64,000 nt of DNA, from positions 1,589,935-1,653,934 of the forward strand of contig OZ242278.1 in assembly GCA_965207475.1 (NCBI GenBank), given 5' to 3'. The notes under the pieces were generated by a model that was given only the letters and a program-made list of their open reading frames with translations, ran no database searches and was not told where the DNA came from. This document shows positions 36,008 to 52,894 of this stretch, piece after piece. This DNA is from Gammaproteobacteria bacterium (GTDB lineage: Bacteria; Pseudomonadota; Gammaproteobacteria; UBA4575). How positions within the stretch are numbered: the stretch's first letter is position 1; the number at the start of each line of letters is the position of its first letter. A program made the translations under genes and the position numbers.

Positions 36008-36069
36008 TGGGTATTGCGGGTGTAGCCTGAATTCATACTGAAATAGGGGCAAGATTCGCAGAAATCAAC

Positions 36070-37832: not shown

Positions 37833-38085
37833 GCCGAGATGAGACCCGGGAATCCCGGGCAGCGTACGGGCCTGCCCCGGTACGGCATTTGTCAGGGCAA
37901 TTGATGGTCAAGTTCCTGGAATATTTCAGGGACAGGGCCGGCTGCACAGGAACGCGGATGCGGCCATTTAAAAAAGCAATAGGCACTTTAGATTATCTCG
38001 CAACTATCTATATATGAATATTAACATATACTAATATATATCCTATACTGCCCTCAACACATTTAACCAGTTCGAGGACAGTAAC

Positions 38086-38199
38086 ATGGATAGAATCTTC
38101 TCAAAAATTAACGATCTGAACACCGTACTCTGGGTGGAGACGGCAGTGTTTATTGCAGCTGTAGGCCTCATCTTCGGTCTTGTTGTGGGGGTTTTGTAG
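38086..38199 (+). CDS. Candidate small ORF (37 aa) with hydrophobic C-terminal helix, preceded by a GAGGA Shine-Dalgarno
   Basis: The reading is MDRIFSKINDLNTVLWVETAVFIAAVGLIFGLVVGVL. It lies in the AT-rich region just upstream of the RiPP block and is not in the ORF track (shorter than 60 aa). Confidence 0.25.
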   Translation: MDRIFSKINDLNTVLWVETAVFIAAVGLIFGLVVGVL

Positions 38200-38455
38200 C
38201 CAGTAACGATACTTCATGCACCGGTCATGACCGGCCGGGTCACGACCGGTGCATGCCTGGATTCATGCGTATGGGCTGCATGTGACCTGCAGCATCTCAA
38301 CACCTTCTGAAAGTACACGGCAGTCCCTGCCGAACAGCTGCCCGTATCGTTGACCACGTACTCGGAGCTGCCCGGAGCAAGACAGCTTGACAAGGCAGTC
38401 CAGTTGCTGACAATAAGCTTATCAGGGTGTAAATCTGAATAGGCTGGAGGTCGCG

Positions 38456-40903
38456 ATGGCGGAGTATATGGCAGAACCGGGCGGCCTGGATCCCGGTATA
38501 TCTAGAAGAGGTATGGTCGAGCCGTCGGTTCTGAATGCTCTCCCGCACTTTTTGTCCCTTACAGTTTTTCCACTTTTAATCTGTGCCGTGGTATACGGTG
38601 GCTGGTGGATCATCGGGCCGTTTGTCTACTTCGGGCTCGCAAACTGGTTTGACTCGCTGTTTGGCATGGAAAAGCGAAACATGGACCCGGGCAATACGCT
38701 CGAAAGCCAGTTATTCCTGTACAAGCTAGCTGTCTGGATGTGGGCTGTGATGTGGCCCGCCACACTCGTGCTCTCGCTTTGGCTGATGCTTGTCGCTGAC
38801 CATTTGGCCGTTTGGGAATCTGCACTGATCACCATCACCTTGTTTTTTACAGCCCAGTCAATCTTCATCGTTGGACATGAGCTGGTGCACAGGACCTCCT
38901 GGCTGGAAAGACGGTTTGGTGAATTCCTCTTGGCGTCGTCTTCCTATCCGCATTACGCTACTGAACATATTTATGTTCATCATTCTCTGGCCTGTACGCC
39001 TGCTGATCCCGGGTCTGCGAGAAAGGGCCAGAGTTTCTGGCAGTACTTTCCCAGGGATTTGAGGCGAAGTCTGATCGAGTCCTGGCGTTTTGAGCGCGAC
39101 CGGCTTGCACGACGGCACTTGCCTGTGTGGCACTATACGAATCCTTTCTGGCGCTACTCCCTAGAAACCGCTGCGTGGTATGCGCTGGTGTACTGGATGG
39201 GAGGGATCTGGGTAGCGCTGGTCTTCGCCGTATTGTGTTTCTTCCTTGTCCTGTCGATGAAAATCATCAACTATGTCCAGCACTATGGGCTGGAGCGCAT
39301 CCGCCTTCCCGGCGGCCGGTATGAGCCGGTTCTGGTGCGACACTCCTGGAGTGCTGCCAGCAGGTTCACCAACTGGCTCTATTACAATATGCAACGCCAT
39401 TCGGACCATCACACCGAGGCCACCCGGTACTACCCGCTGTTGCAGTATCACGGTGGGGACGAGTCGCCACAGTTACCGGAAGGTTACTCCGCGATGGCTA
39501 ATTACGCGATGGTCCCTCGTGTCTGGTTCCGAAAGATGGATCCGCTGGTTGATCGCTGGCGTGCACACTTTTATCCACAGATTGAGGACTGGAGCGCCTA
39601 TGACAGCGCTGCATACGCTGCCTGCCCGGACGAGTTCGAAGCCATTTCGGAGATCTATGATGCCGCACCACGCATGGCCGAATGGATAAACCGGGCTCCG
39701 GAACTGCTCGAGAGCCTGCGGGACAGGGAGTTCACCGCTCTTGACCTCCCGGATGGCTTCGCCCCGGATCCGGAATTCGAAATGGTTGCGCGGCGAGGGC
39801 TGGCGCGTGTGTACTGGACACGCGAGTTTGATGTTTCTGAAATGAAGGAGCAACTTGCCGCAATACCGGCCCAGGGCGTAAAGGAAGTGGTAGAGACTGC
39901 AAGAAACTGGCTCAACGACAAGGTCTTTCAGATCAGCATGCACATGATCCGCGGTAATCTGCAGCCGACCGAGGCAGGGAAAGTCCTGTCCAACCTTGCC
40001 GAGGCCTCGGTCTGCATCCTGCTGTCGGCGGTTGAGGTGGAATTTGCCAACCGGCGTCGTCGACGCGGCGAAGGTGCCGTCACAGCTGTACTTCTGGGTG
40101 AATCTGCCAGCGGAGAGGCAGCACCCGGTACAAGGCTCGATGTCATGTTCGCGTACGAAGGCGGCCCTGTAGAATATTATCAAGCCCTGTGCAGACGGTT
40201 CCTTGAGGAACTGCGTACATTTTCGCATGAAAACCTGCTTTTTCAGCCACTTCCACGTGGCGGGAAGGGAAGGGGTGTCTGGTCCGTGGCTGAATTTGCC
40301 GAACATTACCGGGGAGACACGGTGAACGGTCTGCCGGACCTCATTCAGTCACGGTGTGTCTTTGAATCCGGAAATCCCGGAATTTGGACCCGCCTGGACA
40401 CGGTGCGACACGAAGTCCTGTCCTCTGGTGCTTCCCGCATCGCACAGGCAGATGCGTTGCGTGAAGCTCTGGGAGCAGCCGGTACGGCCGAACCGGGTCT
40501 GCAGTCGATCGAAGAAATGCGTGGTGGCCTTCGGGAGCTCGTGCATGCAGCCAGGCTGGTACAACTGGCCCATGCCGGTGAGGCTCCTGAAATTCTGGTT
40601 CCTGATACGGCTTCCGCATTCCGGACTGCAGGCAGTCTCGGGCTGATTGCCGGGGATGTCTCCAGGCGGCTGGCCGATGCAGCAGAGATGTGGTTGAACC
40701 TGCATGGCATTTTGCGACTGGTGGTCAAGGATGGCTTTGCCATCGAGAAGGCAACACCGAAGGTCCAAGCCGTCATTGCCCGTTCCTGCGGGATGAAGGA
40801 TTTCAGTGCGCTGACCGATGCAATACATGAAACGGCGGACCGTACCGCTGCAGACATCGATGCGCTGGACAGCACAGTCCTGAAATCAACCCGTATATCC
40901 TGA
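38456..40903 (+). CDS. Fusion protein: AlkB/fatty-acid-desaturase-type membrane di-iron oxygenase (N-terminal) + GlnE/GlnD-like nucleotidyltransferase domain (C-terminal)
   Basis: His boxes HELVHR, EHIYVHH, NYVQHYGL and RHSDHH lie within TM segments. The C-terminal half aligns with the GlnE adenylyltransferase core (LDVMFAYEG; LFQPLPRGGKGRGVWSVAEFAEHY; LIQSRCVFESGNP). A GGAGG SD precedes the ATG. Confidence 0.7.
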   Translation: MAEYMAEPGGLDPGISRRGMVEPSVLNALPHFLSLTVFPLLICAVVYGGWWIIGPFVYFGLANWFDSLFGMEKRNMDPGNTLESQLFLYKLAVWMWAVMWPATLVLSLWLMLVADHLAVWESALITITLFFTAQSIFIVGHELVHRTSWLERRFGEFLLASSSYPHYATEHIYVHHSLACTPADPGSARKGQSFWQYFPRDLRRSLIESWRFERDRLARRHLPVWHYTNPFWRYSLETAAWYALVYWMGGIWVALVFAVLCFFLVLSMKIINYVQHYGLERIRLPGGRYEPVLVRHSWSAASRFTNWLYYNMQRHSDHHTEATRYYPLLQYHGGDESPQLPEGYSAMANYAMVPRVWFRKMDPLVDRWRAHFYPQIEDWSAYDSAAYAACPDEFEAISEIYDAAPRMAEWINRAPELLESLRDREFTALDLPDGFAPDPEFEMVARRGLARVYWTREFDVSEMKEQLAAIPAQGVKEVVETARNWLNDKVFQISMHMIRGNLQPTEAGKVLSNLAEASVCILLSAVEVEFANRRRRRGEGAVTAVLLGESASGEAAPGTRLDVMFAYEGGPVEYYQALCRRFLEELRTFSHENLLFQPLPRGGKGRGVWSVAEFAEHYRGDTVNGLPDLIQSRCVFESGNPGIWTRLDTVRHEVLSSGASRIAQADALREALGAAGTAEPGLQSIEEMRGGLRELVHAARLVQLAHAGEAPEILVPDTASAFRTAGSLGLIAGDVSRRLADAAEMWLNLHGILRLVVKDGFAIEKATPKVQAVIARSCGMKDFSALTDAIHETADRTAADIDALDSTVLKSTRIS

Positions 40904-41010: not shown

Positions 41011-43359
41011 TTGGAGAAAAGTACGGACAGGAAGGCATCACCTAACGCCGGTTCATCCCGCAGTATTCTGAAGAAAACCACCGAAGCTGACTGCGGTTTC
41101 ATCGAGAAACCCGTACTTGTCCCGCACCTGGAATTCAGGTTGCTGGGCGGGCGGCAAGCGCTGCTGGTTTCTGAAACTTTCAACACGCTGCTCCATGGGC
41201 AGCTGGTTTGCGATATTCTGCCGCTTCTTGATGGCCGCCGCACACGCCGGGACATCATGGCATCCCTGACCGGCAAGCATCTGGGGCCCGATATCCTGAC
41301 CGCGCTCACCTTCTTGACAACCAAGGGGTATATTGTCTCGGGGGAGTACAGAATGGAACAGGGGCAGGCGGCATACTGGTCTTCACAGGGTGTCACTCCT
41401 CGATATGCCGAGGAGCGGCTGAAGTCATTGCAGGTAGATGTAGCCGGCGATGAAGGCCGCCACCTTGCCCGGCGGCTTGAAGCCATGGGTGTGTACTTGG
41501 ACAGGAGCCATCCGGCCCTTTCCATTATCATTTGTGCCGATTTTCTTGATGAGCGGAATGCGGCCCTCAACCGGCGCCATGTCAGCTCTGGCGTACCCTG
41601 GTTGCTGGTCAGGCCAAAGGGCGTGATTCCACTGCTTGGCCCGGTTTTCCGGCCTGCGGAGCAGGGGCCTTGCTGGGCCTGCCTGGCCTACCGCCTGCAA
41701 GGCCAGCAGGAGGTCCATAACTTCCTGCGCAATCGTGCCGGCACTGAGGCCGCCTTTCAGCCCTTTGCGGCCGAACCCATGGTGCTGGAGACGGTGTACG
41801 GGCTGTTTGCGGCGGAGATTGCCAAGTGGCTGGTCTTCGGCGAGCTGGCGCCGATACATGAGCATGCAATCACGCTGGATGTCGCTGCACTGAAAACGGC
41901 GAGACATCCGGTGCGCAGGCGACCACAGTGCGTGGTGTGCGGCGAGGAAAGGCACTTCAGCCCTGATCGCCCGGCCAGTCCGGTGCACCTCAAGTCCAGT
42001 CCCAAAAACGTTCAAAACAGTGGTGGTGTGCGCTCGGTGTCTCCCGAAGAGACCCTGGCCAAGTACCGCCATCTCATCAGCCCAGTCAGCGGGGTGGTGA
42101 CCTGGATCGAACGTACCACGGACGTGTACGATCACTGGCTTCATGTCTATTGGGCCGGTAGCAATCTGGCCCTTCGTGTCAAAAACCTGAGCTCGCTGAG
42201 ACGCAGCCTGCGGAGCAAGAGTGCAGGCAAGGGAAGCACACCCGAACAGTCCGAGGCGAGTGCGCTTTGCGAGGCGGTTGAGCGCTATTCGGGCGCATTC
42301 CACGGGGATGAGATCCGTACTTGCAAACGGTTTTCAGAATTTTCTGACAAGGAACAGGAGTTTGACGCCATCCACCCGAACCAGGTCCAGTTGTTCAGTG
42401 ATCACCAGTTCGACCATGCGCGCGAGATCAATGCCAGGCAACATCCCTACAATTTTGTTCCTGGCCGGCTCGACCCGGAGGCTGCGATCGAATGGTCGCC
42501 GGTCTGGTCGCTCACGCGAGGTCGGCACTGTTACCTTCCGACCTCCATGCTCTACAGCATGACGCCGGAGCAGCGAGGCACTTCAGACTTGATTGCGGAT
42601 TCGAACGGCTGTGCGGCCGGCAATACGCTGGAGGAAGCTATCCTGCAGGGATTTTTCGAACTGGTGGAACGTGACGCGTTCGCCATCTGGTGGTACAACC
42701 GGCTGCGCTTTCCCGCGGTCGACCTGGAGAGTTTTGGCGACGCCTACCTTGCGGGTGCGCAGGACTACTACCGAAAGCTCCACCGCGAGATGTGGCTGCT
42801 GGATATCACGGGTGATTTTGGCATTCCGGCCTTTATTTCCATCTCGCGACGAACCGATTCACAACCCGAAGACATCCTGTACGGGGCCGGTGCGCACACC
42901 GATCCGCATATCGCGGCCTTGCGTGCAGTATGCGAAATGAACCAGTGCCTGACCTGGGTTCCCCGCCCGGAAACCGGCCATACCGGGTACGGAGTGGATG
43001 ACCCGATGTGCCTGTCATGGTGGAAGAACGCCACGCTTGAGGAATATCCCTACCTGGCCCCCGATCCTGGGGCCGCAACACGGGGCCGCCCGGATTATTT
43101 CGTGCCCGAAACTTCGGATGTGAAAGAGGATGTCGAGCGGTGCGGTGCACTGGTAAAAGCCAGGGGCCTGGAGATGCTTGTACTTGACCAGACCCGTCCC
43201 GATATCGGCATGCCGGTAGCCCGGGTGATCGTGCCGGGATTGCGTCACTTCTGGGAAAGGTACGCACCGGGGCGCCTGTACGACGTGCCGGTCAACATGG
43301 GCTGGCGGGAAAAACCGCTGGCTGAGGCCGACCTCAACCCCGTCCCGGTCATCGCCTGA
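41011..43359 (+). CDS. Fused E1-like (leader-binding/ThiF-like) + YcaO cyclodehydratase, PatD/TruD-like
   Basis: The 782-aa protein has an N-terminal E1-like domain with Cys pairs (CWAC, CVVCGE) and a C-terminal YcaO domain (ALCEAVERYSG; CAAGNTLEEAILQGFFELVERDAFAIWWYN). It appears to start at TTG. Confidence 0.85.
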   Translation: MEKSTDRKASPNAGSSRSILKKTTEADCGFIEKPVLVPHLEFRLLGGRQALLVSETFNTLLHGQLVCDILPLLDGRRTRRDIMASLTGKHLGPDILTALTFLTTKGYIVSGEYRMEQGQAAYWSSQGVTPRYAEERLKSLQVDVAGDEGRHLARRLEAMGVYLDRSHPALSIIICADFLDERNAALNRRHVSSGVPWLLVRPKGVIPLLGPVFRPAEQGPCWACLAYRLQGQQEVHNFLRNRAGTEAAFQPFAAEPMVLETVYGLFAAEIAKWLVFGELAPIHEHAITLDVAALKTARHPVRRRPQCVVCGEERHFSPDRPASPVHLKSSPKNVQNSGGVRSVSPEETLAKYRHLISPVSGVVTWIERTTDVYDHWLHVYWAGSNLALRVKNLSSLRRSLRSKSAGKGSTPEQSEASALCEAVERYSGAFHGDEIRTCKRFSEFSDKEQEFDAIHPNQVQLFSDHQFDHAREINARQHPYNFVPGRLDPEAAIEWSPVWSLTRGRHCYLPTSMLYSMTPEQRGTSDLIADSNGCAAGNTLEEAILQGFFELVERDAFAIWWYNRLRFPAVDLESFGDAYLAGAQDYYRKLHREMWLLDITGDFGIPAFISISRRTDSQPEDILYGAGAHTDPHIAALRAVCEMNQCLTWVPRPETGHTGYGVDDPMCLSWWKNATLEEYPYLAPDPGAATRGRPDYFVPETSDVKEDVERCGALVKARGLEMLVLDQTRPDIGMPVARVIVPGLRHFWERYAPGRLYDVPVNMGWREKPLAEADLNPVPVIA

Positions 43360-43526: not shown

Positions 43527-43773
43527 CTCCACCGCATTGACCTTCAGTCTGTGTTGCCGCGGATGGTAAATACCTTGATCAACCTTGGTTTGGACTCAGT
43601 GGATTCGGAGCACGTGGTCTAAGTTGGACTGCTCTCGGAGTAACAGGGTTGCAGGCTGCGAAATGGCATGTTTATTACTTGGCATGAGGCTTCCGTTGCA
43701 ATGAAGCTTGTTGCGCGACTTGCCGCCAAGGCCGTTCGCAGCTAGTCACGTCATTCCTGTGAGCAAGCGCGGC

Positions 43774-46104
43774 ATGAAAAAAGGGCAATTTGCCAGGCGA
43801 TTTGCCGAACAGGTGCTCACGGCCCGCTGGCTGGTCATCGTGGCCACGCTGTTACTGGTTGCGGGCGCATCAAGCGGCATCGCCCTGCTTGAATTCTCAG
43901 CCAACTACCGAATCTTCTTCGACGAAGACAATCCGCAGCTTCTGGCATTGGAAGCACTGGAGAATACTTACGGGAAGAACGAGAACATCGTGTTCCTGAT
44001 TGCCCCGGACGATGGTGACGCCACGTCACAAAACGCACTGTCGGCCGCCGTCTGGCTCACGGAAGCCGCCTGGTTGACGCCCTATTCAAGGCGAGTCGAC
44101 TCACTCGCCAATTTTCAGTACACGACTGCCGATGGCGACGATCTGTATGTGCGGGACCTTGTTGATCCGCAGGAACTGGCCCAGGCCGAGGTGCGGTCAC
44201 GAATTCGTGACGTTGCCCTGTCCGACCCGCGGATAGCAGGCACCATTCTAGCCCGGAATGCTGATGTCAGCGTTGTAAACGTCGCGGTCGAGCTGCCCGA
44301 GGAGGGCCTGCTGGAGGCTGTGGCCGAAGTCGCCGAATATGCCAGGTCGGTTGCCGCGGAGGCTGAAGAACGGTTTCCCGACATAGACCTTCGCATCGTC
44401 GGTACGGTCATGATCAACCAAACCTTCCTGGAAGCCTCGATCAACAGCCAGAAGGTTTTCCTGCCCGCAAGCCTGCTGCTCATGGCCTTGATCCTTGGTG
44501 TCCTCACACGGGGCTGGGCAGGGGTGGCGGCGACCGGAATTGTCATAGTCTTTTCCATTTTCACGTCAGTGGGCCTGGGTGTGTGGGTCGGCTTACCCTT
44601 TTCCCCGCCCGTCTCGCCAGCACCGACCATCGTGCTGATGATCGTCGTGGCAAACTGTGTGCACTTGCTGGTGGCTGTGCAGCAGCATTTGCGTGCGGGG
44701 GATTCCAAGCACGACGCCATCGTTGAAGCTGTCAGGCTCAACTTGCACCCGGTATTTCTGGCGAGTCTCACAACGGCGATTGGATTCTTGAGCATGAACT
44801 TTTCCGAAGTGCCGCCCTATCGTCATCTCGGAAACTTCGTCGCATTCGGAATCGTCGCCTCTTTCGTTCTCTCCGTCACCTTTCTTCCGGCCCTGCTTTC
44901 GCTTCTTCCTATCCGTGCGGCAAAGGACCGTCGGCTGCTCCGCGGACCCACAATGCACCGCTTGGCGGATGTTGTGTTGCGCCATAGAAAGCCGCTGTTT
45001 TGGGGATGGCTGGTGGTTGTGCTTGCAATGATTCTGTCCATTCCGCGAAACGAGCTCAATGATGTTCTGGTCCACTTTTTCGATGAGGGCGTTGAATTCC
45101 GGCAAGATGTGGACTTCATGGACGAGCACCTAAGCGGCAACACCCTGCTTGAGTACTCGCTGCACGCATCTGCTGAGGGAGGTGTCACCGATCCGCTTTT
45201 CCTCGCCGAGGTTTCGAGCTTCGCCGGCTGGTACCGTGACCAGCCCCCTGTACGCCACGTGTCGGTCATTACCGATACCTTTCAGCAACTTAACAAGAGC
45301 ATGCACGGAGACGACCCGGGTGCCTACCGAATACCGGAAAGCCAGGAACTGGCGGCACAATACCTGCTGCTTTACGAACTCTCGCTTCCGCAGGGTCTGG
45401 ACCTGAACAATCAGATTGACAGGTCCAGATCAGCCACGAGAGTGACGGTCTCGGCGGAAACACTTTCTTCGCAAGAAGTGCTTGAGCTGAATGCGCGTGC
45501 CGAGGCATGGCTAAAGGAAAATGCATCGCATGTTGCCGGCGTCAACAGCACCGGCCCCGCCGCGTTGTTCGCCTACATCGGGCATCGCAACATTCGGGCC
45601 ATGCTAGTCGGGACAATGGTTGTTCTCTTGGCAATTTCTGTCATTCTGCTCGTCGCGTTGCAATCACTGCGACTGGGCTTGATAAGCATCGTCCCCAATT
45701 TGATTCCTGCAGTGCTGGGCTTCGGTGTCTGGGGATTGATGGTCGGACAGGTTGGACTTTCGCTATCTGTCGTGGTGGCCATGACCGTCGGCATCGTCGT
45801 GGATGACACTGTGCATTTTCTCAGCAAGTACCAGCGGGCGCGAAATGAATACGGCCAGAGTCCCGAGGAAGCGGTACGCTACGCCTTTGACACGGCAGGC
45901 CGGGCCCTGTTTACAACGACGGTCGTGCTGGTGGCCGGTTTTTTGATTTTTATGTTTTCACCCTTCGTTCCCACCGCACAGGTTGGTGTCCTCACCGGGA
46001 TGATTATTGCCTTTGCATTCATCGCCGACCTGACACTCCTGCCTGCGTTGCTGACAGCGGTGGACCGGAATGCTGCAAAGCGGACCGCGCTTGCACCCGA
46101 CTGA
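43774..46104 (+). CDS. MMPL-family / RND-superfamily exporter (HpnN-like, two SSD-like 6-TM bundles)
   Basis: The 776-aa protein has an N-terminal TM (RWLVIVATLLLVAG) and two periplasmic domains with an overall MMPL layout. The ATG at 43774 is preferred over the TTG at 43708. Confidence 0.8.
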   Translation: MKKGQFARRFAEQVLTARWLVIVATLLLVAGASSGIALLEFSANYRIFFDEDNPQLLALEALENTYGKNENIVFLIAPDDGDATSQNALSAAVWLTEAAWLTPYSRRVDSLANFQYTTADGDDLYVRDLVDPQELAQAEVRSRIRDVALSDPRIAGTILARNADVSVVNVAVELPEEGLLEAVAEVAEYARSVAAEAEERFPDIDLRIVGTVMINQTFLEASINSQKVFLPASLLLMALILGVLTRGWAGVAATGIVIVFSIFTSVGLGVWVGLPFSPPVSPAPTIVLMIVVANCVHLLVAVQQHLRAGDSKHDAIVEAVRLNLHPVFLASLTTAIGFLSMNFSEVPPYRHLGNFVAFGIVASFVLSVTFLPALLSLLPIRAAKDRRLLRGPTMHRLADVVLRHRKPLFWGWLVVVLAMILSIPRNELNDVLVHFFDEGVEFRQDVDFMDEHLSGNTLLEYSLHASAEGGVTDPLFLAEVSSFAGWYRDQPPVRHVSVITDTFQQLNKSMHGDDPGAYRIPESQELAAQYLLLYELSLPQGLDLNNQIDRSRSATRVTVSAETLSSQEVLELNARAEAWLKENASHVAGVNSTGPAALFAYIGHRNIRAMLVGTMVVLLAISVILLVALQSLRLGLISIVPNLIPAVLGFGVWGLMVGQVGLSLSVVVAMTVGIVVDDTVHFLSKYQRARNEYGQSPEEAVRYAFDTAGRALFTTTVVLVAGFLIFMFSPFVPTAQVGVLTGMIIAFAFIADLTLLPALLTAVDRNAAKRTALAPD

Positions 46105-46393: not shown

Positions 46394-46645
46394 ATGAGAA
46401 GCGGAGATGATATGCTGAAGCAGATTGTTGAGAAGTCTGCCTTGAATGCGGAGTTCAGGCAACAGCTTCTTGATGATCCAAAATCTACCATCAGTGGGGA
46501 GCTGGGTATTACAATTCCCGATTCGATGAATGTCGTGGTCCATGAGAGCGACATGCAGACGGTGCATCTTGCACTGCCACCGGACCCGAACATCACCGAG
46601 GAGCAGCTTGAGGCGATTTCAGCCGGCCTTTGCTGTTGCTGGTAG
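46394..46645 (+). CDS. NHLP (nitrile-hydratase-leader-peptide) family RiPP precursor; predicted core LCCCW after a GA/GG-type cleavage site (…EAISAG|LCCCW)
   Basis: The leader reads KQIVEKSALNAEFRQQLLDDPKSTISGELGITIPDSMNVVVHESDMQTVHLALPP, which is characteristic of NHLP leaders. An AGGAG SD lies 7 nt upstream, and the protein is 83 aa with a C-terminal Cys3-Trp. Confidence 0.8.
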   Translation: MRSGDDMLKQIVEKSALNAEFRQQLLDDPKSTISGELGITIPDSMNVVVHESDMQTVHLALPPDPNITEEQLEAISAGLCCCW

Positions 46646-46768: not shown

Positions 46769-47827
46769 TCAGGTGGAAACCGCTCCGGAAAGTACCATGA
46801 ACACGTAGGCTTTCGCTTTTCGGAGTTGATTTTCAGATATGACCAGTTTGATGTGGTGAATGCCACGTAGCATGACAAAACGCCCGGACTTTGCAAAGAG
46901 CGTTGTCGGTTTCGAAACCCAGTCAGCAAGTGCCGTCAGTTTCTCCGAGTCTACAAGGTCCTCATGACCGAGGGCATCCAAAAACGGGTCCCAATCGGTC
47001 AGGCCATCGAGCCAATAACGTGAATCCTTTGTATATCTCTGCTTGACGATAAGCGTAAGGCCGAGCGTCGGACCAACACCTTCTTCCCGCACGTCAATAT
47101 TCACCCCGGTCCTGACGATGTTCACGCGTTTCTTGAAGCGTGCAATCACGGAATCGACCGCAGAGACCTGGCCCGGCCAACCCGTGTTTTCGAGATAGCC
47201 ACATATTTCCTGCTGCGATTTGAAACCCATGATTGCCAGGCGGATTGCACGTGAGCGAGACGGGAATATGCCGAACGAATCCATGCGCGTATCGCCTGGC
47301 TGCGCCAGGTAGGCTCGTTCGACATTCTCCCGCTTGGTGTCGTGCATCCCCCAGCCTACACTGGAAACTAGCGCTTCAACCACCAGACCGATATCGTTCA
47401 CCTGACCACGGGCTCCAATGATTGGCCGTTCCCCGGGCCGAAGGAACATTCCCGGAAGCGAACAGTTGCTTTCCTGCGCCGAGCCAATGTCATATTCCAG
47501 CATCAGCTTGCGGCCTACGATTTCACGCAGGGGCGAGTTTTCGGCATCCATTTGTGTACACAACCGCGCGATCGCTTTTGCAGTCTCATCTGTCCTGTCA
47601 GTCCGTGCGCGCTCCATGAAAAACCCTGCCGTCCTGGTTCCGCTTGCCAGGGAAACGCCGAAATCCGCTTCAGGCCTGTGCGTATGCAACGGCAGTTCAA
47701 AGCCGAACGGAAGGGCGCCCATGGTAATGGGATGTTTCCTGGCACATTCGAGTATGCGCTCCCATTCCGGGACTCCGATAAGAATCGGAGAAATCCTGTT
47801 TCGAAAGTGCTCAAGCAATTCACCCAT
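46769..47827 (-). CDS. Hypothetical protein (352 aa) in RiPP cluster, unknown fold
   Basis: The ORF has coding-like composition and a GAGGG SD but no motif I recognise. It is the last gene of the minus-strand block. Confidence 0.5.
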   Translation of the reverse strand: MGELLEHFRNRISPILIGVPEWERILECARKHPITMGALPFGFELPLHTHRPEADFGVSLASGTRTAGFFMERARTDRTDETAKAIARLCTQMDAENSPLREIVGRKLMLEYDIGSAQESNCSLPGMFLRPGERPIIGARGQVNDIGLVVEALVSSVGWGMHDTKRENVERAYLAQPGDTRMDSFGIFPSRSRAIRLAIMGFKSQQEICGYLENTGWPGQVSAVDSVIARFKKRVNIVRTGVNIDVREEGVGPTLGLTLIVKQRYTKDSRYWLDGLTDWDPFLDALGHEDLVDSEKLTALADWVSKPTTLFAKSGRFVMLRGIHHIKLVISENQLRKAKAYVFMVLSGAVST

Positions 47828-48292: not shown

Positions 48293-49594
48293 TCAGGCCC
48301 TCAAGATTTCTACGAGACGCTCCAGGGCCTCGATACAAAAAGCAGAGGTAACGGATTCAGAGCCATGTCCTATCTGCCCTACAGCGCCCCACTTCAGCGA
48401 CTGGTCACCAAACGCGAGAAGCTCCGGCCAACTGCCGTCCTCATGTTGCGAGCTTATGAGCCTTTCCACCTGACGTTTCGCATCGGTGCTTTCAAGGTTG
48501 CCAGTATTGTAGAGCGCTGACACGGCCTGGGCGGTCTGGAGGATGTTGCCGAATTCTCCCTGCTCATCACGCAAGCCCAGGATACGGTCCGCAAGTAGCG
48601 GGCGCAGTTGATCAAGGGCAGGTTGCACACGAATCATGGCACGGGTGATTGCATAGCAGATTGTGACAGTGTCGGGATACCATTTGGACGAGCCCTCGAG
48701 GCTCCCGTCGGCAATCAGGGATTTCAGCCATCGTTGGGCAGCCTTGGTTTCGGGGTTGTCACCGAGGTAAGCGATGACGTTTGCATTGACTACGGGGTCC
48801 GCTTCGATACGAAATCTCGACACGACATTGGGCTCGTCTTCCTCCAGTACCCAGGTCATGAAACGACCCTCCTCGTCACGGTTCGCCAAGATTCGCGGAA
48901 CATTCCTTCCCAGCAAGATCCAGGGATGAGTCCCGATGACAAGGGAGCAGGTGGTGGTACTGTCAAGATCCTGGGGCAGATGCCGGTAGTAGCGCCACAA
49001 TCCGGGGTATTCAATGGTGTCGGCAAGATACGCCTTGGTGGCGGTGCATAGGGCCCTGGCCTTCGCTTCATCGCAGCATTCCAGGGCCAGTACGCAAAGA
49101 GCCGAGATAAAAGGAGGTCTTTCGAAATGCCGTGGGATGTCCGGGTCGGCTATGTTGAACCGGATGCAGTGCCAGGCACCATTTTCGTCAATTGTGGATT
49201 CCAGGAAATCGAGGCCGCGGCGGATACTTTTCCTGCCCGCTTTTACAAGCTCCTTGGTGGTGGCTGCGTGCTGTCGGGCGTACTCACTTTCAGGGGCAGG
49301 GGAACGAAAAGCCGGTGCGGGGTCATGAAGTGTCTTGCGAAGATACTCAAGTGAAGCAACGCCTGTTTTAGCCGCCTCCCGTTCGGCCTCACTGAGTTTG
49401 CTACACGGCGGCAGCACCAAGTGAGTCGAGGTATAGGTTTCTTCGTGCACGTGAATTTCATGATCCTCGGCCAGCGTCACGCCGAGTTCCTTTTCGATTG
49501 TTTCTTTGGGCTTCCCGAGCAGGCGTTCGCGAAAGTCACTGTCCTCGCCCGCTCTCGACACGAGAAACTCTGCTGCGTTATTCGGCTTTTTCAT
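48293..49594 (-). CDS. NHLP-leader-like N-terminal domain fused to an alpha/alpha-toroid repeat domain (prenyltransferase/terpene-cyclase-like NGAW/DGSW repeats)
   Basis: The first ~65 aa (FRERLLGKPKETIEKELGVTLAEDHEIHVHEETYTSTHLVLPP) are paralogous to the precursor's leader. The remaining ~360 aa contain ENGAW and EDGSW repeat motifs. Confidence 0.6.
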   Translation of the reverse strand: MKKPNNAAEFLVSRAGEDSDFRERLLGKPKETIEKELGVTLAEDHEIHVHEETYTSTHLVLPPCSKLSEAEREAAKTGVASLEYLRKTLHDPAPAFRSPAPESEYARQHAATTKELVKAGRKSIRRGLDFLESTIDENGAWHCIRFNIADPDIPRHFERPPFISALCVLALECCDEAKARALCTATKAYLADTIEYPGLWRYYRHLPQDLDSTTTCSLVIGTHPWILLGRNVPRILANRDEEGRFMTWVLEEDEPNVVSRFRIEADPVVNANVIAYLGDNPETKAAQRWLKSLIADGSLEGSSKWYPDTVTICYAITRAMIRVQPALDQLRPLLADRILGLRDEQGEFGNILQTAQAVSALYNTGNLESTDAKRQVERLISSQHEDGSWPELLAFGDQSLKWGAVGQIGHGSESVTSAFCIEALERLVEILRA

Positions 49595-49951: not shown

Positions 49952-52894
49952 TCAGGCGATCTGTCTTTTGACCAGTTTTCTGAATACCCCTTCAGCCTCC
50001 ATGAGTTCCTTGAAGGAGCCGCTTTGCACAACTTTTCCGGTCTGTAACACGTAGATGCGATCAGTCTGTTGCAGCGTGGACAGGCGATGGGCGATGACAA
50101 CCCGGGTGGGGGTCAGGGCAGTGAGGTTCTGCATGACCTTGGCCTGGTTTTCGTTATCCAGCCAGTTGGTTGCCTCGTCAAACAGCATGATTCGCGGACT
50201 GCCGATCACCGAGCGGGCGATTGTGACGCGCTGACTTTCACCCCCTGACAAAACCGCTCCGCTGGACCCGACCATGGTCATCATGCCCATGGGCATGCCC
50301 TTGATTTCGTTCTCGACTTCTGCAACCCTGGTCGCTGTCCAGACATCCTCGGTCGCCACTTCCTCGTGATGACTGACCAGATTGTCCCAGATATCCATGG
50401 GGTGGAGCCCGACAGATTGTGGCACTGCGCCGATTTTCCGGCGCACCTGTTTCAGGTTCAGGTGCCTCAGGTCCCGCCCGTCGTAATACACTGCGCCAGC
50501 AGTCGGGCGGTCGACTCCAAGCGCGAGCCGGAACAGGGTGCTCTTGCCTGCACCGGACTCGCCGGTGATCGCGACAAATTCGCCAGGACGGGCGTGAATC
50601 GTCACATCATCGAGAATTAACGGGCCATCAGGATCGTAACGAAAGGAAACCCGGTCGAACAGAATTTCGCCACCCAGATATTCAACCGGCTCTCCTTCGG
50701 TCTCGGTTTCAGGAACTGCTGCGAGCAGCGGACGCATCTGGTCGAATGCAGGCAGCATGGCGGCAATGGTGCCGAAGGACTCGCCCAGCCGGGCGATTGC
50801 GGACTGGAAAACGATGAAGACCAGGTAGACGACGAGAAAATCACCGATCAGGATGTGCCGGTCGCTCACCGCTGCCACCGCGAATAGCAGTACCCCACCC
50901 GCGAGAAAGGGGAGCGCGGCACCAAATGCGCGTGCATGCCCCTCAAATGCCCCCAGTTCGAGTTCTGCGCGTTTCTGCTCGCGATAATCCTGCGCCCAGA
51001 TGGCGAATGCCGAACCTTCCGCGTTTTCCACGCGCAGTTTGGTGAAACCGCCCACGATCTGGAACAGCCTGCCGGAAACACGACGCGCTGCACGGATCAT
51101 CCGCCCATATGGTGAAATCTGGAGCAAGCCAAGGGCTACCGTGATCAGCAGCGAAGCCAGACTGAAGGCGAGGGTAATGACCCCGAGGGTGGTGTTGTAG
51201 AAGAAAATGATGCCAAATACCGGAAGCAGGAAAATAATCGACAGCAAGCTGTCGGCGACGACTCCTTGCAAGCCATCGCGAAGATTCTGGAACGTCATCC
51301 CCGACATGGCCAGGTCGCCGGTTGAATGGCGGTGCAGAATGCTTGCCGGAAGGCGCATGAGGCGGTCCCAAAAGGCAGCTTCGGCCCGCGATGCGGAACG
51401 ACCCTCAAGCCGCATCATTGCCGTGCTTTGAAACAGGTGCAGCAGTGCACCGAGCAGACCAAATACCGCCAGCGCCACGGCCACTGAATAGATCACTCCG
51501 GCACTTCCGCCTGCAGTTATTTCATTTGCAGCGTAGCCTAGGGCGAGGGCTGGCAACAGTTTGATCAGGCCGCCCGGAAGCCCGGAAATCACCAGCCGCA
51601 CCAGATCCGCGGCTGATCCATGCAGGGCGATTCCCAGCAGGTCAGACGGTTTCACGTTCTCCGAAGGCAAGGGGCGATAGAACATCCAGGCTTCTTCCCC
51701 CAGCGTGTTGGCGCGACCTGCTGCAATCCGCACGCTGCACTTGCTGACTGGGTCGATTTCCCGATAGCGCCCAAATTTTCCCGGCAGCAGCGCTACGGGC
51801 TGGCCATCCTCTGCCCGAAATCCCAGCATCGCGCTACTGTCGCCGCGCCACCAGTGGTCTTCGGCTTTCAATCGTACGCGCCGGGCACGTACGGCTGATG
51901 CATCAAGCACTTCAACGAGGCTGACCGGAGTATCGGAAGGTTCCGAGCGCGTGGGAATCTTGAAATCGATACCTTCATGGCGGCCGATGATTTGCAAGGC
52001 ATCTGTCAGGGCCGTGTCTTCGACACGGGTATCCTGGCCTGTCGGCAAGTCATAGATATTGAAAAGCCGCTGTCGTGCAGTTTTTTCAGCCGTACGTCGG
52101 CTGGTCGTCCGTGCACGTTCGAGATTCACTTCGTCGACCACGGCCAGTTGGCGGTTAAGGCGTTCCAGGGCGAATGCAACCGCGTGAAAAGATGCGAGCG
52201 CTGGCAGCAACATGTCTTGCTGAGCCAGTGTTTCCGTTGATTTACCCAGCAATGTGGCCCTGTCAAACAAGGTGAGCCAGCTTGTCCGCGTCAGCGGTAT
52301 CATGGTTTCATGTGAGCCGCTTGCTTCGGCAAGCTCTGCCTGGTCGACGATGTCCATGAACAGGAATTCGCCGCGCAGTGGCTTGGATACCCATACCACA
52401 TTGCGATGTACGGACAGTATGCAAGGTGGAAAGGTCCGTGCCATACCGGGATCGGCCAGCGCAGTTGCACGCGGAATGGGGCTTGCAAACCGAGAAAGTG
52501 TGTCAGTAATGGCGGTCAGCCAGGTATCCGTCTGCTCCGCCAGTTCTGCCGGATGAACCTCGGACAGCAAGGATGCCGGGAGGCGCTTCAGAAGAGTACC
52601 TGGCGATCCTTTTGCAATCAGGCTGAGGGTGGTATCTTTATTGTTGTCACGTTCGTCTGGTGCCACCCCCGGCAGTATCCAGCCCGCTTCGCGACGCAGC
52701 AGATGCTGCGGCGCTGCCTGTTCCACCCCGTCCTTGAATTCAACCAGGAACAGATTGACGGAACCCTGGTCAATAAACCAGACACTGCCTGGGTCGTCGA
52801 GTTTCACCGGCAAGTTGCCGGCACAAGGTACGGTTGTGCCGGAACGAGCTACGAGTTCGGCAATCGATGTGCAGTTCGGGCTTTTGTCCAGCAT
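49952..52894 (-). CDS. NHLP/NHLM-type bacteriocin ABC transporter, ATP-binding/permease protein without an active peptidase (N-terminal accessory domain + 6TM + NBD)
   Basis: The 980-aa protein has Walker A GESGAGKST and signature LSGGESQRV, with a ~450-aa N-terminal extension lacking the C39 Cys. Confidence 0.8.
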   Translation of the reverse strand: MLDKSPNCTSIAELVARSGTTVPCAGNLPVKLDDPGSVWFIDQGSVNLFLVEFKDGVEQAAPQHLLRREAGWILPGVAPDERDNNKDTTLSLIAKGSPGTLLKRLPASLLSEVHPAELAEQTDTWLTAITDTLSRFASPIPRATALADPGMARTFPPCILSVHRNVVWVSKPLRGEFLFMDIVDQAELAEASGSHETMIPLTRTSWLTLFDRATLLGKSTETLAQQDMLLPALASFHAVAFALERLNRQLAVVDEVNLERARTTSRRTAEKTARQRLFNIYDLPTGQDTRVEDTALTDALQIIGRHEGIDFKIPTRSEPSDTPVSLVEVLDASAVRARRVRLKAEDHWWRGDSSAMLGFRAEDGQPVALLPGKFGRYREIDPVSKCSVRIAAGRANTLGEEAWMFYRPLPSENVKPSDLLGIALHGSAADLVRLVISGLPGGLIKLLPALALGYAANEITAGGSAGVIYSVAVALAVFGLLGALLHLFQSTAMMRLEGRSASRAEAAFWDRLMRLPASILHRHSTGDLAMSGMTFQNLRDGLQGVVADSLLSIIFLLPVFGIIFFYNTTLGVITLAFSLASLLITVALGLLQISPYGRMIRAARRVSGRLFQIVGGFTKLRVENAEGSAFAIWAQDYREQKRAELELGAFEGHARAFGAALPFLAGGVLLFAVAAVSDRHILIGDFLVVYLVFIVFQSAIARLGESFGTIAAMLPAFDQMRPLLAAVPETETEGEPVEYLGGEILFDRVSFRYDPDGPLILDDVTIHARPGEFVAITGESGAGKSTLFRLALGVDRPTAGAVYYDGRDLRHLNLKQVRRKIGAVPQSVGLHPMDIWDNLVSHHEEVATEDVWTATRVAEVENEIKGMPMGMMTMVGSSGAVLSGGESQRVTIARSVIGSPRIMLFDEATNWLDNENQAKVMQNLTALTPTRVVIAHRLSTLQQTDRIYVLQTGKVVQSGSFKELMEAEGVFRKLVKRQIA

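What the first reader, a model, noticed from the sequence alone, without database searches (positions are those of the whole stretch)
38456..40903. AlkB-type membrane di-iron oxygenase fused to a GlnE-like nucleotidyltransferase domain
The N-terminal ~380 aa have the four His boxes of alkane hydroxylase/desaturase-type integral membrane oxygenases (HELVHR, EHIYVHH, NYVQHYGL, RHSDHH). The C-terminal ~420 aa align with the adenylyl/uridylyl-transferase core of GlnE/GlnD (LDVMFAYEG ... LFQPLPRGGKGRGVWSVAEFAEHY ... LIQSRCVFESGNP). I do not know this domain combination. Its position as the first gene of the RiPP block suggests a tailoring role such as hydroxylation, desaturation or nucleotidylation of the peptide or of a lipid moiety. 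The second acidic residue of the nucleotidyltransferase DxD motif reads D-V-M, so that domain may be non-catalytic and serve a binding or regulatory role.
Basis: partly seen in the sequence, partly recalled or inferred. Interest (0 to 1): 0.85.

Follow-up and report, generated by a model that had tools for sequence, protein, structure and literature searches.

The report
AlkB oxygenase fused to dead GlnE
This is one real gene that joins an intact membrane iron oxygenase of the alkane-hydroxylase type to a catalytically dead copy of a nitrogen-regulation enzyme domain, and it is an uncharacterised but near-constant part of the "srp" peptide-antibiotic-like gene clusters shared by many unrelated bacteria living in marine sponges.

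Summary
Window 38456-40903(+) is one 815-aa ORF. Residues ~20-370 are an AlkB-type di-iron oxygenase (PDB 8F6T, E 2e-56), with all nine His ligands conserved in 120 homologues. Residues ~371-815 derive from the adenylyl-transferase half of GlnE (true GlnE hit at E 1e-57 to 1e-15; Foldseek 1V4A/3K7D E ~1e-11).

The GlnE-like module is a pseudo-enzyme. Its two Asp positions vary, and the third-carboxylate strand (YEVDxRLRP) is deleted family-wide. It is still under purifying selection (dN/dS ~0.17-0.20).

The fusion is not rare: over 560 genome loci in sponge-symbiont MAGs of at least five phyla, labelled only "fatty acid desaturase".

The "RiPP block" is the published srp proteusin cluster, with an SrpE precursor ending ...ITEEQLEAISAGLCCCW at 46394-46645. 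The fusion accompanies the SrpC-type YcaO in 59/80 fusion-anchored and 21/25 YcaO-anchored loci, more often than the characterised brominase SrpI. No held paper describes it.

The conserved neighbours are an ABBA-prenyltransferase-fold protein, CMAS-type methyltransferases and an MMPL/HpnN-like pump. No SagB-type dehydrogenase or rubredoxin was found.

Best reading: an oxidative tailoring enzyme acting at the membrane on the hydrophobic, possibly prenylated, thiazoline peptide, with the dead GlnE module serving as a docking or regulatory domain. The substrate and reaction are inferred, not shown.

The parts
38387..38414 (+). Promoter-like site (TTGACA-16-GACAAT) about 40 nt upstream of the start; GGAGG ribosome-binding site at 38446-38450
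   Evidence: Consensus scan, 10 of 12 matches; sequence read directly. Weak evidence only: the number of promoter-like sites in the region is not above the shuffled expectation.
38456..40903 (+). Single gene for the 815-aa AlkB / pseudo-GlnE fusion protein
   Evidence: ORF list and translation. Full-length homologues at 97-55% identity with 95-100% coverage. AlphaFold2 model with mean pLDDT 88.4 and pTM 0.84.
38513..39565 (+). AlkB-type integral-membrane di-iron oxygenase module (residues ~20-370). His boxes at 38876-38890, 38963-38983, 39269-39292 and 39395-39412
   Evidence: Pfam FA_desaturase, 99 bits. PDB AlkB 8F6T E 2.3e-56 and 8SBB E 4.9e-35. Foldseek 8F6T E 8e-17, target TM-score 0.71. 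H141, 145, 171, 175, 176, 276, 315 and 319 are invariant and H318 is present in 119 of 120 homologues.
39566..40900 (+). Cytoplasmic pseudo-nucleotidyltransferase module derived from the AT half of GlnE (residues 371-815). Degenerate G-S/DxD region at 40097-40150; site of the deleted third-carboxylate strand at 40235-40264
   Evidence: Pfam GlnE and NCBIfam PRK14108. phmmer against 1.84 billion representatives hits true GlnE at E 1e-57 to 1e-15, in their AT half. Foldseek 1V4A E 5.6e-12 and 3K7D E 4.9e-11. Motif alignment, column statistics and dN/dS 0.17-0.20.
41011..43359 (+). SrpC-type fused wHTH / E1-like (RRE) / YcaO cyclodehydratase, immediately downstream
   Evidence: Pfam YcaO 319 bits; TIGR03604 and TIGR03882. 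Present in 59 of 80 fusion-anchored loci.
43708..46104 (+). MMPL / HpnN-like (HAE3) RND transporter
   Evidence: Pfam MMPL, Sterol-sensing and Patched; TIGR00921 and TIGR03480. Present in 34 of 80 loci.
46394..46645 (+). SrpE-type NHLP precursor peptide, ending ...NITEEQLEAISAG|LCCCW
   Evidence: Translation. It matches the published srp core LCCCW and the ITEEQL motif (PMC10286304; bioRxiv 10.1101/2023.06.09.544420). Present in 50 of 80 loci.
46769..47827 (-). Conserved srp 'hypothetical' protein with an ABBA / PT-barrel prenyltransferase fold
   Evidence: No Pfam or NCBIfam hit. 77-86% identity across phyla. AF2 model pLDDT 84.6, five beta-beta-alpha-alpha repeats. All 50 top Foldseek PDB hits are aromatic prenyltransferases, E 2e-5 to 9e-4.
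48293..49594 (-). 433-aa protein: NHLP-leader domain fused to a squalene-hopene-cyclase-like repeat domain
   Evidence: TIGR03793 at residues 8-74; Pfam SQHop_cyclase_C 29.5 bits. Recurs in srp loci.
49952..55104 (-). Two NHLP-type ABC exporters, the second with a C39 leader peptidase domain
   Evidence: TIGR03797, 665 bits. Peptidase_C39 + ABC_membrane + ABC_tran.
58406..59750 (+). SrpI-type flavin-dependent Trp halogenase, split by a frameshift near 58.88-58.96 kb
   Evidence: Pfam Trp_halogenase covers only profile positions 204-408 in ORF 58881-59750. The N-terminal GxGxxG part lies in the overlapping ORF 58406-58963, in another frame.

Best explanation
The gene encodes a two-module inner-membrane protein that is a core, so far uncharacterised, tailoring component of the srp (sponge-derived RiPP proteusin) pathway.

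Module 1 is a catalytically competent AlkB-type di-iron oxygenase. Its active site, as in AlkB, is reached from within the membrane.

Module 2 is a cytoplasmic domain descended from the adenylyl-transferase half of GlnE. It has lost the metal-binding carboxylates and cannot transfer nucleotides, but it is kept by selection as a non-catalytic docking or regulatory module.

Proposed mechanism (inferred):
1. SrpC (YcaO) converts the Cys residues of the LCCC(W) core to thiazolines.
2. The very hydrophobic C-terminal core, probably lipidated by the co-conserved ABBA-prenyltransferase-fold protein and methylated by CMAS-type methyltransferases, partitions into the membrane.
3. The AlkB module then carries out an O2-dependent two-electron oxidation. 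The most likely reaction is hydroxylation or desaturation of an aliphatic or isoprenoid terminus. The alternative is thiazoline-to-thiazole oxidation.
4. The product is exported by the MMPL/RND and C39-ABC systems.

Shown here: the architecture, the intact His site, the dead NTase site, purifying selection, and the cross-phylum linkage to srp genes. Inferred: the substrate, the reaction, the role of the GlnE-like module, and the electron donor.
For: Architecture and AlkB identity. Nine His ligands conserved in 120 homologues (eight invariant, H318 in 119/120).

GlnE descent. The module shares a ~30-aa insert with one GlnE subgroup (P0146, P0162).

Dead NTase: position 560 is E73/G13/D12/A7/R4 and position 562 is D87/R11/E10/G3/H3 among 120 sequences. 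The 'YEVDxRLRPSG' strand is deleted in every fusion member.

Still functional: dN/dS 0.17-0.20, against 0.07-0.12 for the AlkB module.

The cluster is srp: the precursor ends ...ITEEQLEAISAGLCCCW, as in PMC10286304, PMC10858898 and bioRxiv 10.1101/2023.06.09.544420.

Linkage: the YcaO is within 10 kb in 59/80, the precursor in 50/80, the PT-fold protein in 49/80 and the halogenase in only 15/80 fusion-anchored loci, across Gamma- and Alphaproteobacteria, Nitrospirota, Acidobacteriota, Gemmatimonadota and Binatia. In reverse, 21/25 YcaO-anchored metagenome loci carry the fusion.

Lipid/isoprenoid theme among neighbours: PT-barrel fold, CMAS-type methyltransferases, MMPL/HpnN-like pump.

No SagB/nitroreductase-type azoline dehydrogenase in the annotated recurrent neighbour families I checked or in four Pfam-annotated contexts.
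Against: No experiment or product structure is available, so substrate and chemistry are inference from context. About a quarter of fusion loci show no srp gene within 10 kb (for example L134), so the protein may have an srp-independent role in some genomes. No rubredoxin or ferredoxin gene lies nearby in 131 loci, so the electron supply is unexplained. The same pseudo-GlnE module occurs on an AcrB-type RND pump outside any srp cluster; that argues against a role specific to NHLP-leader binding. The PT-fold assignment rests on a model with TM-scores of only ~0.45-0.55 and ~10% identity. The founding srp paper (JACS 2021, PMC8780398) could not be read, so it may already comment on this gene.
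Confidence: 0.6

Rival explanations
1. Azoline oxidase. The AlkB module replaces the missing FMN-dependent (SagB/McbC-type) dehydrogenase and converts the SrpC-made thiazolines to thiazoles, either by direct desaturation or by hydroxylation followed by elimination. This is a sub-case of the best explanation with a specific substrate.
For: No nitroreductase/SagB-type gene in the annotated recurrent neighbour families I checked or in four Pfam-annotated srp contexts. The only feature common to all cores (LCCCW, LCCC, LCCCG[VIL], LSCC[LV], RCCC) is the Cys run. The desaturase superfamily carries out two-electron C-C dehydrogenations (established knowledge of the family). The literature calls the products 'azole', so the oxidation state is open (bioRxiv 10.1101/2023.06.09.544420).
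Against: The sequence is AlkB-like (terminal hydroxylase) rather than desaturase-like: 35% identity to FtAlkB with the NYxxHYGL signature. No di-iron membrane enzyme is known to me to aromatise azolines. This reading does not explain the co-conserved prenyltransferase-fold, CMAS-methyltransferase and lipid-pump genes. Absence of a dehydrogenase was tested only on a sample of loci.
Confidence: 0.2
2. Active nucleotidyltransferase. The GlnE-like half adenylylates or uridylylates the peptide, or a hydroxyl group installed by the AlkB half.
For: The fold and descent from the GlnE AT domain are real. The G-x-x-A-S-G-E segment, equivalent to the NTase G-[GS] motif, is largely conserved (G548 in 119/120, S552 in 99, E554 in 112), so nucleotide binding is not excluded.
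Against: The first acidic position is Arg in this protein and E/G/D/A/R across the family. The second is D in only 87 of 120. The beta-strand bearing the third carboxylate and the RLRP motif, invariant in the seven true GlnE sequences aligned, is deleted in all members. An enzyme under selection for catalysis does not vary its metal ligands like this.
Confidence: 0.04
3. Not a peptide-tailoring enzyme. The protein modifies a membrane lipid or hydrocarbon (sponge-derived lipids, hopanoid/isoprenoid or alkane) for producer self-protection, for envelope adaptation to the sponge host, or to supply a lipid donor. It travels with srp clusters as an accessory or immunity gene. The pseudo-GlnE module acts as a regulatory sensor, for example of nitrogen status through PII or glutamine as in GlnE.
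For: AlkB enzymes canonically act on lipids and alkanes (PDB 8F6T; PMC8918992). About 25% of copies lie away from srp genes. The same C-terminal module sits on an RND pump next to squalene/phytoene-synthase genes and an MpaB-like oxygenase, in a non-srp locus. A second, plain AlkB gene occurs near the fusion in Porisulfidus loci (cluster 15).
Against: Linkage to the YcaO, precursor and PT-like genes across at least five phyla, in varied gene orders and often immediately adjacent and co-directional, is what is expected of a pathway enzyme. No PII or glutamine-binding evidence was obtained.
Confidence: 0.15

Closest known systems
AlkB alkane 1-monooxygenase (Fontimonas thermophila AlkB-AlkG, PDB 8F6T/8SBB; Pseudomonas putida GPo1 AlkB)
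   Same: Six-helix membrane fold. All nine His iron ligands sit in the four signature boxes (HExxH, EHxxxHH, NYxxHYGL, RHxDHH). 35% identity over ~320 residues. Like FtAlkB-AlkG, it carries its extra domain at the C-terminus on the cytoplasmic side.
   Different: The C-terminal partner is a dead GlnE-type domain with no Cys-rich metal site, not a rubredoxin. No rubredoxin, ferredoxin or alk catabolic genes lie nearby. It sits in a RiPP cluster, not an alkane-degradation operon. Box residues differ from the canonical sequences as I recall them (HELVHR for HELGHK, EHIYVHH for EHNRGHH). The 2022 review of AlkB fusions lists only rubredoxin and ferredoxin/ferredoxin-reductase fusions (PMC8918992).
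GlnE, glutamine synthetase adenylyltransferase, C-terminal AT domain (PDB 3K7D; N-terminal domain 1V4A)
   Same: The whole AT half is present: leading helical region, NTase core and following helical domain (Pfam PF03710 with a weak PF08335 hit in some members). It aligns end to end with true GlnE at 25-36% identity and shares a lineage-specific insert with one GlnE subgroup.
   Different: Only one of GlnE's two halves is present. The catalytic Asp pair is unconserved. The D-x-RLRP strand and a ~13-aa loop are deleted. It is tethered to a membrane enzyme. No link to glutamine synthetase.
srp (sponge-derived RiPP proteusin) gene clusters: SrpE precursor, SrpC YcaO, SrpI brominase (Nguyen et al., JACS 2021, as cited in PMC10286304 and PMC10858898)
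   Same: The window carries an SrpE-type NHLP precursor with an LCCCW core and the ITEEQL motif, an SrpC-type YcaO, NHLP ABC exporters and an SrpI-type halogenase (frameshifted). The distribution across sponge-symbiont phyla is as published.
   Different: The published biochemistry that I could read covers only SrpE, SrpC and SrpI. The fusion gene, the PT-fold protein, the methyltransferases and the MMPL pump are described only as 'genes of unknown function' and transporters (PMC11832590). Yet in the loci analysed here the fusion gene and the PT-fold protein are more constant cluster members than SrpI.
Pseudo-enzyme domains of the nucleotidyltransferase fold, and the GlnE-like AMPylator DrrA/SidM (PDB 6YX5)
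   Same: GlnE-like fold (Foldseek E 1e-3 to DrrA).
   Different: DrrA keeps its catalytic motif and AMPylates Rab1. This module lacks the catalytic carboxylates.

Membership tests
AlkB / membrane fatty-acid-desaturase superfamily (Pfam PF00487) | Significant match to the family profile and to solved AlkB structures | tested here: met
   PF00487, 99.2 bits against a cutoff of 29.7. 8F6T E 2.3e-56 by sequence. Foldseek E 8e-17, target TM-score 0.71.
AlkB / membrane fatty-acid-desaturase superfamily (Pfam PF00487) | Nine histidine di-iron ligands in four boxes, including the AlkB-specific NYxxHYGL box | tested here: met
   All are present in the query and aligned to 8F6T. Eight are invariant and H318 is present in 119 of 120 homologues.
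AlkB / membrane fatty-acid-desaturase superfamily (Pfam PF00487) | Alkane omega-hydroxylase activity with a rubredoxin/rubredoxin-reductase electron chain | tested here: not met
   Activity cannot be tested with these tools. The genomic hallmark is absent: no rubredoxin or small ferredoxin ORF in 131 loci plus the window, and no alk catabolic genes. A ferredoxin-reductase-type gene occurs in only 5 gammaproteobacterial loci. So this is a structural family member, not a demonstrated alkane hydroxylase.
GlnE adenylyltransferase (PF03710; NCBIfam PRK14108) | Homology to the GlnE NTase domain | tested here: met
   PF03710, 26.6 bits (cutoff 24). PRK14108 E 1.2e-21, though far below its equivalog cutoff of 724. 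True GlnE hit at E 1e-57 to 1e-15. Foldseek 1V4A and 3K7D, E ~1e-11.
GlnE adenylyltransferase (PF03710; NCBIfam PRK14108) | Catalytic carboxylate triad (S-D-x-D plus the Asp of YEVDxRLRP) and two tandem NTase halves | tested here: not met
   The first Asp is Arg here. Both positions vary across 120 homologues. The third-carboxylate strand is deleted in all fusion members. Only one half is present. It is not a GlnE.
srp proteusin biosynthetic gene cluster | NHLP-leader precursor with an LCCC(W)-type core and (I/L)TEEQL recognition motif, next to an SrpC-type YcaO | tested here: met
   The precursor at 46394-46645 ends ITEEQLEAISAGLCCCW. The YcaO at 41011-43359 matches TIGR03604 and TIGR03882. 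Both features match PMC10286304 and bioRxiv 10.1101/2023.06.09.544420.
srp proteusin biosynthetic gene cluster | The fusion gene is a conserved cluster component (co-occurrence beyond one lineage) | tested here: met
   59/80 fusion-anchored and 21/25 YcaO-anchored loci, across at least five phyla and several gene orders.
srp proteusin biosynthetic gene cluster | The fusion protein modifies SrpE or its product | not testable with these tools
   Needs heterologous co-expression and mass spectrometry.

The most novel reading that the evidence does not exclude
The real srp natural product is not the brominated tris-thiazoline pentapeptide reconstituted so far. It is a membrane-associated lipopeptide whose core is prenylated by a new ABBA-type peptide prenyltransferase, C-methylated, and then oxidised by this protein. 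That would make this the first AlkB-family membrane di-iron oxygenase shown to act in RiPP maturation. The dead GlnE module would be a new portable adaptor that couples membrane enzymes and RND pumps to cytoplasmic partners such as the NHLP precursor, the YcaO or a redox donor.
Probability: 0.25. Interest if true: 0.85.

Novelty: new variant of a known kind. Interest (0 to 1): 0.62.

Why it matters
srp clusters are reported to be among the most widespread and most highly transcribed biosynthetic clusters in sponge microbiomes (bioRxiv 10.1101/2023.06.09.544420; PMC11832590). In the papers I could read, their final product and ecological role remain unknown, and only three proteins (SrpE, SrpC, SrpI) have been studied.

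This gene is a more constant cluster member than the brominase. It pairs an intact oxygenase with a conserved pseudo-enzyme, and it is accompanied by a cryptic prenyltransferase-fold protein, lipid-type methyltransferases and a lipid-type pump. Together these give a concrete, testable proposal for the missing biosynthetic steps.

For enzymology, it would extend AlkB chemistry from hydrocarbon catabolism to peptide natural-product tailoring. It would also add a third class of AlkB fusion, beyond rubredoxin and ferredoxin/reductase.

For evolution, it shows half of a nitrogen-regulatory enzyme being recycled as a non-catalytic module on two unrelated membrane proteins.

Tried and rejected
(1) Two genes split by an overlooked stop: rejected. 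There is one open frame, with full-length homologues.

(2) Natural split versions. The one candidate (L133: 346 aa + 456 aa) is a frameshift after residue ~290 in a 9.9x-coverage contig, not a true split.

(3) Active adenylyltransferase: rejected on motif statistics.

(4) Fused or neighbouring electron carrier. The C-terminal half has no CxxC pairs, and no rubredoxin or 4Fe ferredoxin ORF was found in 131 loci. The FNR-like gene in the window (35264-36052) and the ferredoxin-reductase genes in 5 loci are not conserved partners.

(5) Residues 371-460 as a novel linker domain: rejected. The stretch aligns with the start of the GlnE AT half, including a subgroup-specific insert.

(6) Riboswitch or other RNA element in the 620-nt upstream gap: no Rfam hit anywhere in the window.

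(7) The founding srp paper (PMC8780398 / PMID 34213321) and PMC9746716 are not held. Searches for desaturase, AlkB or GlnE in seven held papers that discuss srp or sponge proteusin clusters found nothing about this gene. No relevant paper surfaced in searches pairing AlkB with GlnE or with RiPP.

(8) AFDB fold search: the library was unavailable.

(9) Batch Pfam scan of all 126 recurrent neighbour families: prepared but not run, because the output lists only the 25 commonest families and cannot prove absence. Pfam-annotated contexts were used instead.
Full report
OBSERVATION. Window 38456-40903(+) is a single 815-codon open reading frame with an ATG start. A GGAGG ribosome-binding site lies 6 nt upstream, and a promoter-like TTGACA-16-GACAAT lies at 38387-38414. 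No stop codon separates the two halves. Pfam finds FA_desaturase at residues 120-347 (99 bits) and GlnE (PF03710) at 461-619 (26.6 bits, just above the curated cutoff of 24). The NCBIfam GlnE model PRK14108 aligns residues 472-798 to its C-terminal third, at E 1.2e-21.

THE N-TERMINAL MODULE IS AN INTACT AlkB. Residues 52-368 align with the cryo-EM AlkB of Fontimonas thermophila (8F6T, E 2.3e-56; 8SBB, E 4.9e-35), with every His box in register. An AlphaFold2 model built on 120 homologues is confident (mean pLDDT 88.4, pTM 0.84). Foldseek returns 8F6T as its top hit (E 8e-17, target TM-score 0.71, 35% identity). Of the nine iron-ligand histidines, eight are invariant across 120 full-length homologues and H318 is present in 119 of 120. 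This module is therefore very probably a working di-iron oxygenase.

THE C-TERMINAL MODULE IS A DEAD GlnE HALF. I searched residues 371-815 against 1.84 billion representative proteins. The search returned the fusion family itself, down to 25% identity. It also returned bona fide two-domain GlnE proteins of ~950-1013 aa, always in their C-terminal (adenylyl-transferase) half, at E 1e-57 to 1e-15 (domain check). Foldseek matches both solved GlnE domains (1V4A E 5.6e-12; 3K7D E 4.9e-11), followed by the GlnE-like AMPylator DrrA.

An alignment with seven true GlnE sequences shows homology from the helical lead-in through the NTase core to the C-terminal helical domain. The stretch 371-460 is therefore not a new linker. 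The module also shares a ~30-residue insert (LDLPDG...ARRGLxRxY) with only one GlnE subgroup (P0146, P0162), which marks its likely origin.

The catalytic apparatus is gone:
- GlnE 'GKLGGRE...SDLDL' becomes 'GESASGE...TRLDV' in this protein.
- Across 120 homologues the first acidic position is E73/G13/D12/A7/R4 and the second is D87/R11/E10/G3/H3.
- The strand 'YEVDxRLRPSG', which carries the third carboxylate and is invariant in the true GlnE sequences aligned, is deleted in every member.

The module is nevertheless under purifying selection. Its dN/dS is 0.17-0.20 in unsaturated comparisons, against 0.07-0.12 for the AlkB module. It is a conserved pseudo-enzyme.

THE ARCHITECTURE IS COMMON AND ECOLOGICALLY RESTRICTED. 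A search of 5.8 billion protein clusters found 914 relatives. The top 120 are all ~805 aa, cover the full length at 55-97% identity, and are named only 'fatty acid desaturase' or 'hypothetical protein'. A scan of one genome per species found 563 encoding loci. The best 80 are almost all MAGs whose names or bin codes point to marine sponges (Candidatus Porisulfidus, Poriferihabitaceae, Palauibacter, Spongia_Bin9, the Theonella TsSOB, and RHO/APA/COS/SB bins). They span Gamma- and Alphaproteobacteria, Nitrospirota, Acidobacteriota, Gemmatimonadota and Binatia at a fairly uniform 50-60% identity. That pattern suggests horizontal spread within the sponge microbiome. The sponge origin of the anonymous OZ/OY/CB-series MAGs is my inference.

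THE 'RiPP BLOCK' IS THE PUBLISHED srp CLUSTER. Window 46394-46645(+) encodes MRSGDD...NITEEQLEAISAGLCCCW. This has an NHLP-type leader, the ITEEQL recognition motif and the LCCCW core. Those features define the sponge-derived RiPP proteusin (srp) precursor SrpE. In the published work, its three Cys residues are cyclodehydrated by the YcaO SrpC and its C-terminal Trp is brominated by SrpI (PMC10286304, PMC10858898; bioRxiv 10.1101/2023.06.09.544420).

The rest of the window fits:
- an SrpC-type wHTH/E1-like/YcaO fusion at 41011-43359;
- an MMPL/HpnN-like RND pump at 43708-46104;
- NHLP-type ABC exporters, one with a C39 peptidase, at 49952-55104;
- an SrpI-type halogenase at 58.4-59.75 kb that is split by a frameshift.

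LINKAGE. I called ORFs in the 80 fusion-anchored loci plus the window and clustered them. By tblastn:

| Gene within 10 kb of the fusion | Loci (of 80) |
|---|---|
| SrpC-type YcaO | 59 |
| SrpE-type precursor | 50 |
| 352-aa unknown protein | 49 |
| MMPL pump | 34 |
| Halogenase | 15 |

Many loci are truncated by contig ends, so these counts are minima. Gene orders differ among lineages. The precursor cores are LCCCW, LCCC, LCCCG[VIL], LSCC[LV] and RCCC. In the reverse test, 21 of 25 YcaO-anchored metagenome loci with at least 4 kb on both sides contain the fusion. The fusion is thus a near-constant srp component and more constant than the brominase that gave the cluster its fame. About a quarter of copies lack visible srp neighbours (for example L134).

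WHAT THE NEIGHBOURS SAY ABOUT CHEMISTRY.
- The 352-aa unknown (window 46769-47827, minus strand) has no Pfam or NCBIfam family, yet it is 77-86% identical across phyla. Its AlphaFold2 model (pLDDT 84.6) consists of five beta-beta-alpha-alpha repeats. All 50 best PDB matches are ABBA/PT-barrel aromatic prenyltransferases: EpzP, CloQ, NphB, DMATS enzymes, TleC, AmbP1/3 and the cyanobactin enzyme LimF (E 2e-5 to 9e-4, TM-score ~0.45-0.55).
- A methyltransferase recurring in 31 loci matches, among generic methyltransferase models, the CMAS (lipid-olefin methyltransferase) family. L136 has two copies.
- The pump is of the MMPL/HpnN lipid-exporter type.
- No SagB/nitroreductase-type azoline dehydrogenase appears among the annotated recurrent neighbour families I checked or in four Pfam-annotated contexts.
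- No rubredoxin or small ferredoxin ORF occurs in 131 loci.

A SECOND HOME FOR THE PSEUDO-GlnE MODULE. The same degenerate module, with the same deletions, is fused to the C-terminus of an AcrB-type RND transporter (P0170 and P0171, ~1525 aa). That locus has no srp genes but lies next to an MpaB-like oxygenase and two squalene/phytoene-synthase genes. AcrB-type pumps also sit directly beside the fusion gene in 12 srp loci. The module therefore behaves as a portable cytoplasmic appendage of membrane proteins, not as a partner exclusive to AlkB.

MECHANISM (INFERRED). AlkB enzymes take hydrophobic substrates from the bilayer and oxidise terminal C-H bonds. Here I propose the following sequence. 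The tris-thiazoline C-terminus of SrpE is probably prenylated and methylated, and it partitions into the membrane. The AlkB module then performs an O2-dependent two-electron oxidation before export. Hydroxylation or desaturation of an aliphatic or isoprenoid terminus fits the AlkB-like sequence and the lipid-type neighbours best. Thiazoline-to-thiazole oxidation is the main alternative, and the missing dehydrogenase favours it. The dead GlnE module most plausibly docks a cytoplasmic partner (precursor, YcaO or redox donor) or senses a regulatory ligand. Nucleotide binding is not excluded, because G-x-x-A-S-G-E is conserved. The electron donor is unknown.

COMPARISON WITH WHAT IS KNOWN, AND NOVELTY. 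By fold and active site the protein belongs to the AlkB/desaturase superfamily. It fails the genomic hallmarks of an alkane-catabolic AlkB. It is homologous to GlnE but fails GlnE's catalytic and two-domain criteria. It is a component of the known srp cluster family.

The 2022 review of AlkB fusions knows only rubredoxin and ferredoxin/reductase fusions (PMC8918992). No relevant paper surfaced in my searches pairing AlkB with GlnE or with RiPPs. The held papers on srp and sponge proteusin clusters treat only SrpE/C/I, or speak of 'several genes of unknown function' (PMC11832590). The founding JACS 2021 paper could not be read, so it may have labelled this ORF.

I rate the finding a new variant of a known kind: real, conserved, uncharacterised, and mechanistically suggestive. 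Its function is still inferred only from context.

Noticed in passing
window 46769-47827 (-): The conserved srp 'hypothetical' protein has no Pfam/NCBIfam family but is 77-86% identical across phyla. It is predicted to have an ABBA/PT-barrel prenyltransferase fold, and all 50 top PDB fold matches are aromatic prenyltransferases. Homologues are 372 aa, so the true start may lie ~60 nt upstream of the listed ORF.
   Followed up: yes
window 48293-49594 (-): A 433-aa protein carries an NHLP leader-peptide domain (residues 8-74) fused to a squalene-hopene-cyclase-like repeat domain. It recurs in 11-19 srp loci. It could be a protein-sized precursor, a decoy, or a leader-in-cis enzyme.
   Followed up: partly
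window 58406-59750 (+): The SrpI-type flavin-dependent tryptophan halogenase is split by a frameshift. The N-terminal GxGxxG part is in ORF 58406-58963 and the rest in ORF 58881-59750. This is either a pseudogene or an assembly error, although the precursor still ends in Trp.
   Followed up: partly
L132:10001-14578 (proteins P0170, P0171): The same degenerate GlnE-like module is fused to the C-terminus of an AcrB-type RND transporter (~1525 aa). The locus has no srp genes but lies next to an MpaB-like oxygenase, a NUDIX gene and two squalene/phytoene-synthase genes.
   Followed up: partly
window 38087-38200 (+): A 37-aa hydrophobic mini-ORF (MDRIFSKINDLNTVLWVETAVFIAAVGLIFGLVVGVL) lies in the 620-nt gap upstream of the fusion gene. 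It is preceded by an AT-rich promoter-like site (38021-38049). It is conserved only in the two closest relatives (L001, L002).
   Followed up: partly
L003-L070 (cluster 4, 31 loci); L136:15932-17683: SAM-dependent methyltransferases that match the CMAS (cyclopropane/mycolic-acid synthase) family among others recur in srp loci, sometimes in two copies. They are absent from the cluster region of this window.
   Followed up: partly
window 56097-58198 (+): LolA-like (PF17131/DUF1329) and weakly DUF1302-like genes lie between the ABC exporters and the halogenase. A neighbour family that looks LolA-like by eye (cluster 30; not checked against Pfam) recurs in 5 other srp loci. This hints at an outer-membrane handling system for a hydrophobic product.
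   Followed up: no
L133:4964-7371: An apparent 'split' AlkB + GlnE-like gene pair is really a frameshift after residue ~290 of the AlkB part, in a 9.9x-coverage contig. It sits in an otherwise complete srp locus with an IS605-family OrfB/TnpB-type transposase gene.
   Followed up: yes
L014, L015, L017, L023, L026, L033, L036, L038 (cluster 15): Porisulfidus-type loci carry a second, plain ~380-aa AlkB-like gene (HELAH / NHH / NYLEHYGL / RQADHH) a few kb upstream of the fusion gene.
   Followed up: no
L134:10001-12484: This is an orphan copy of the fusion gene on a 2.5-Mb contig, with no YcaO, precursor or PT-like gene within 10 kb. The protein may therefore have, or retain, an srp-independent role.
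   Followed up: no
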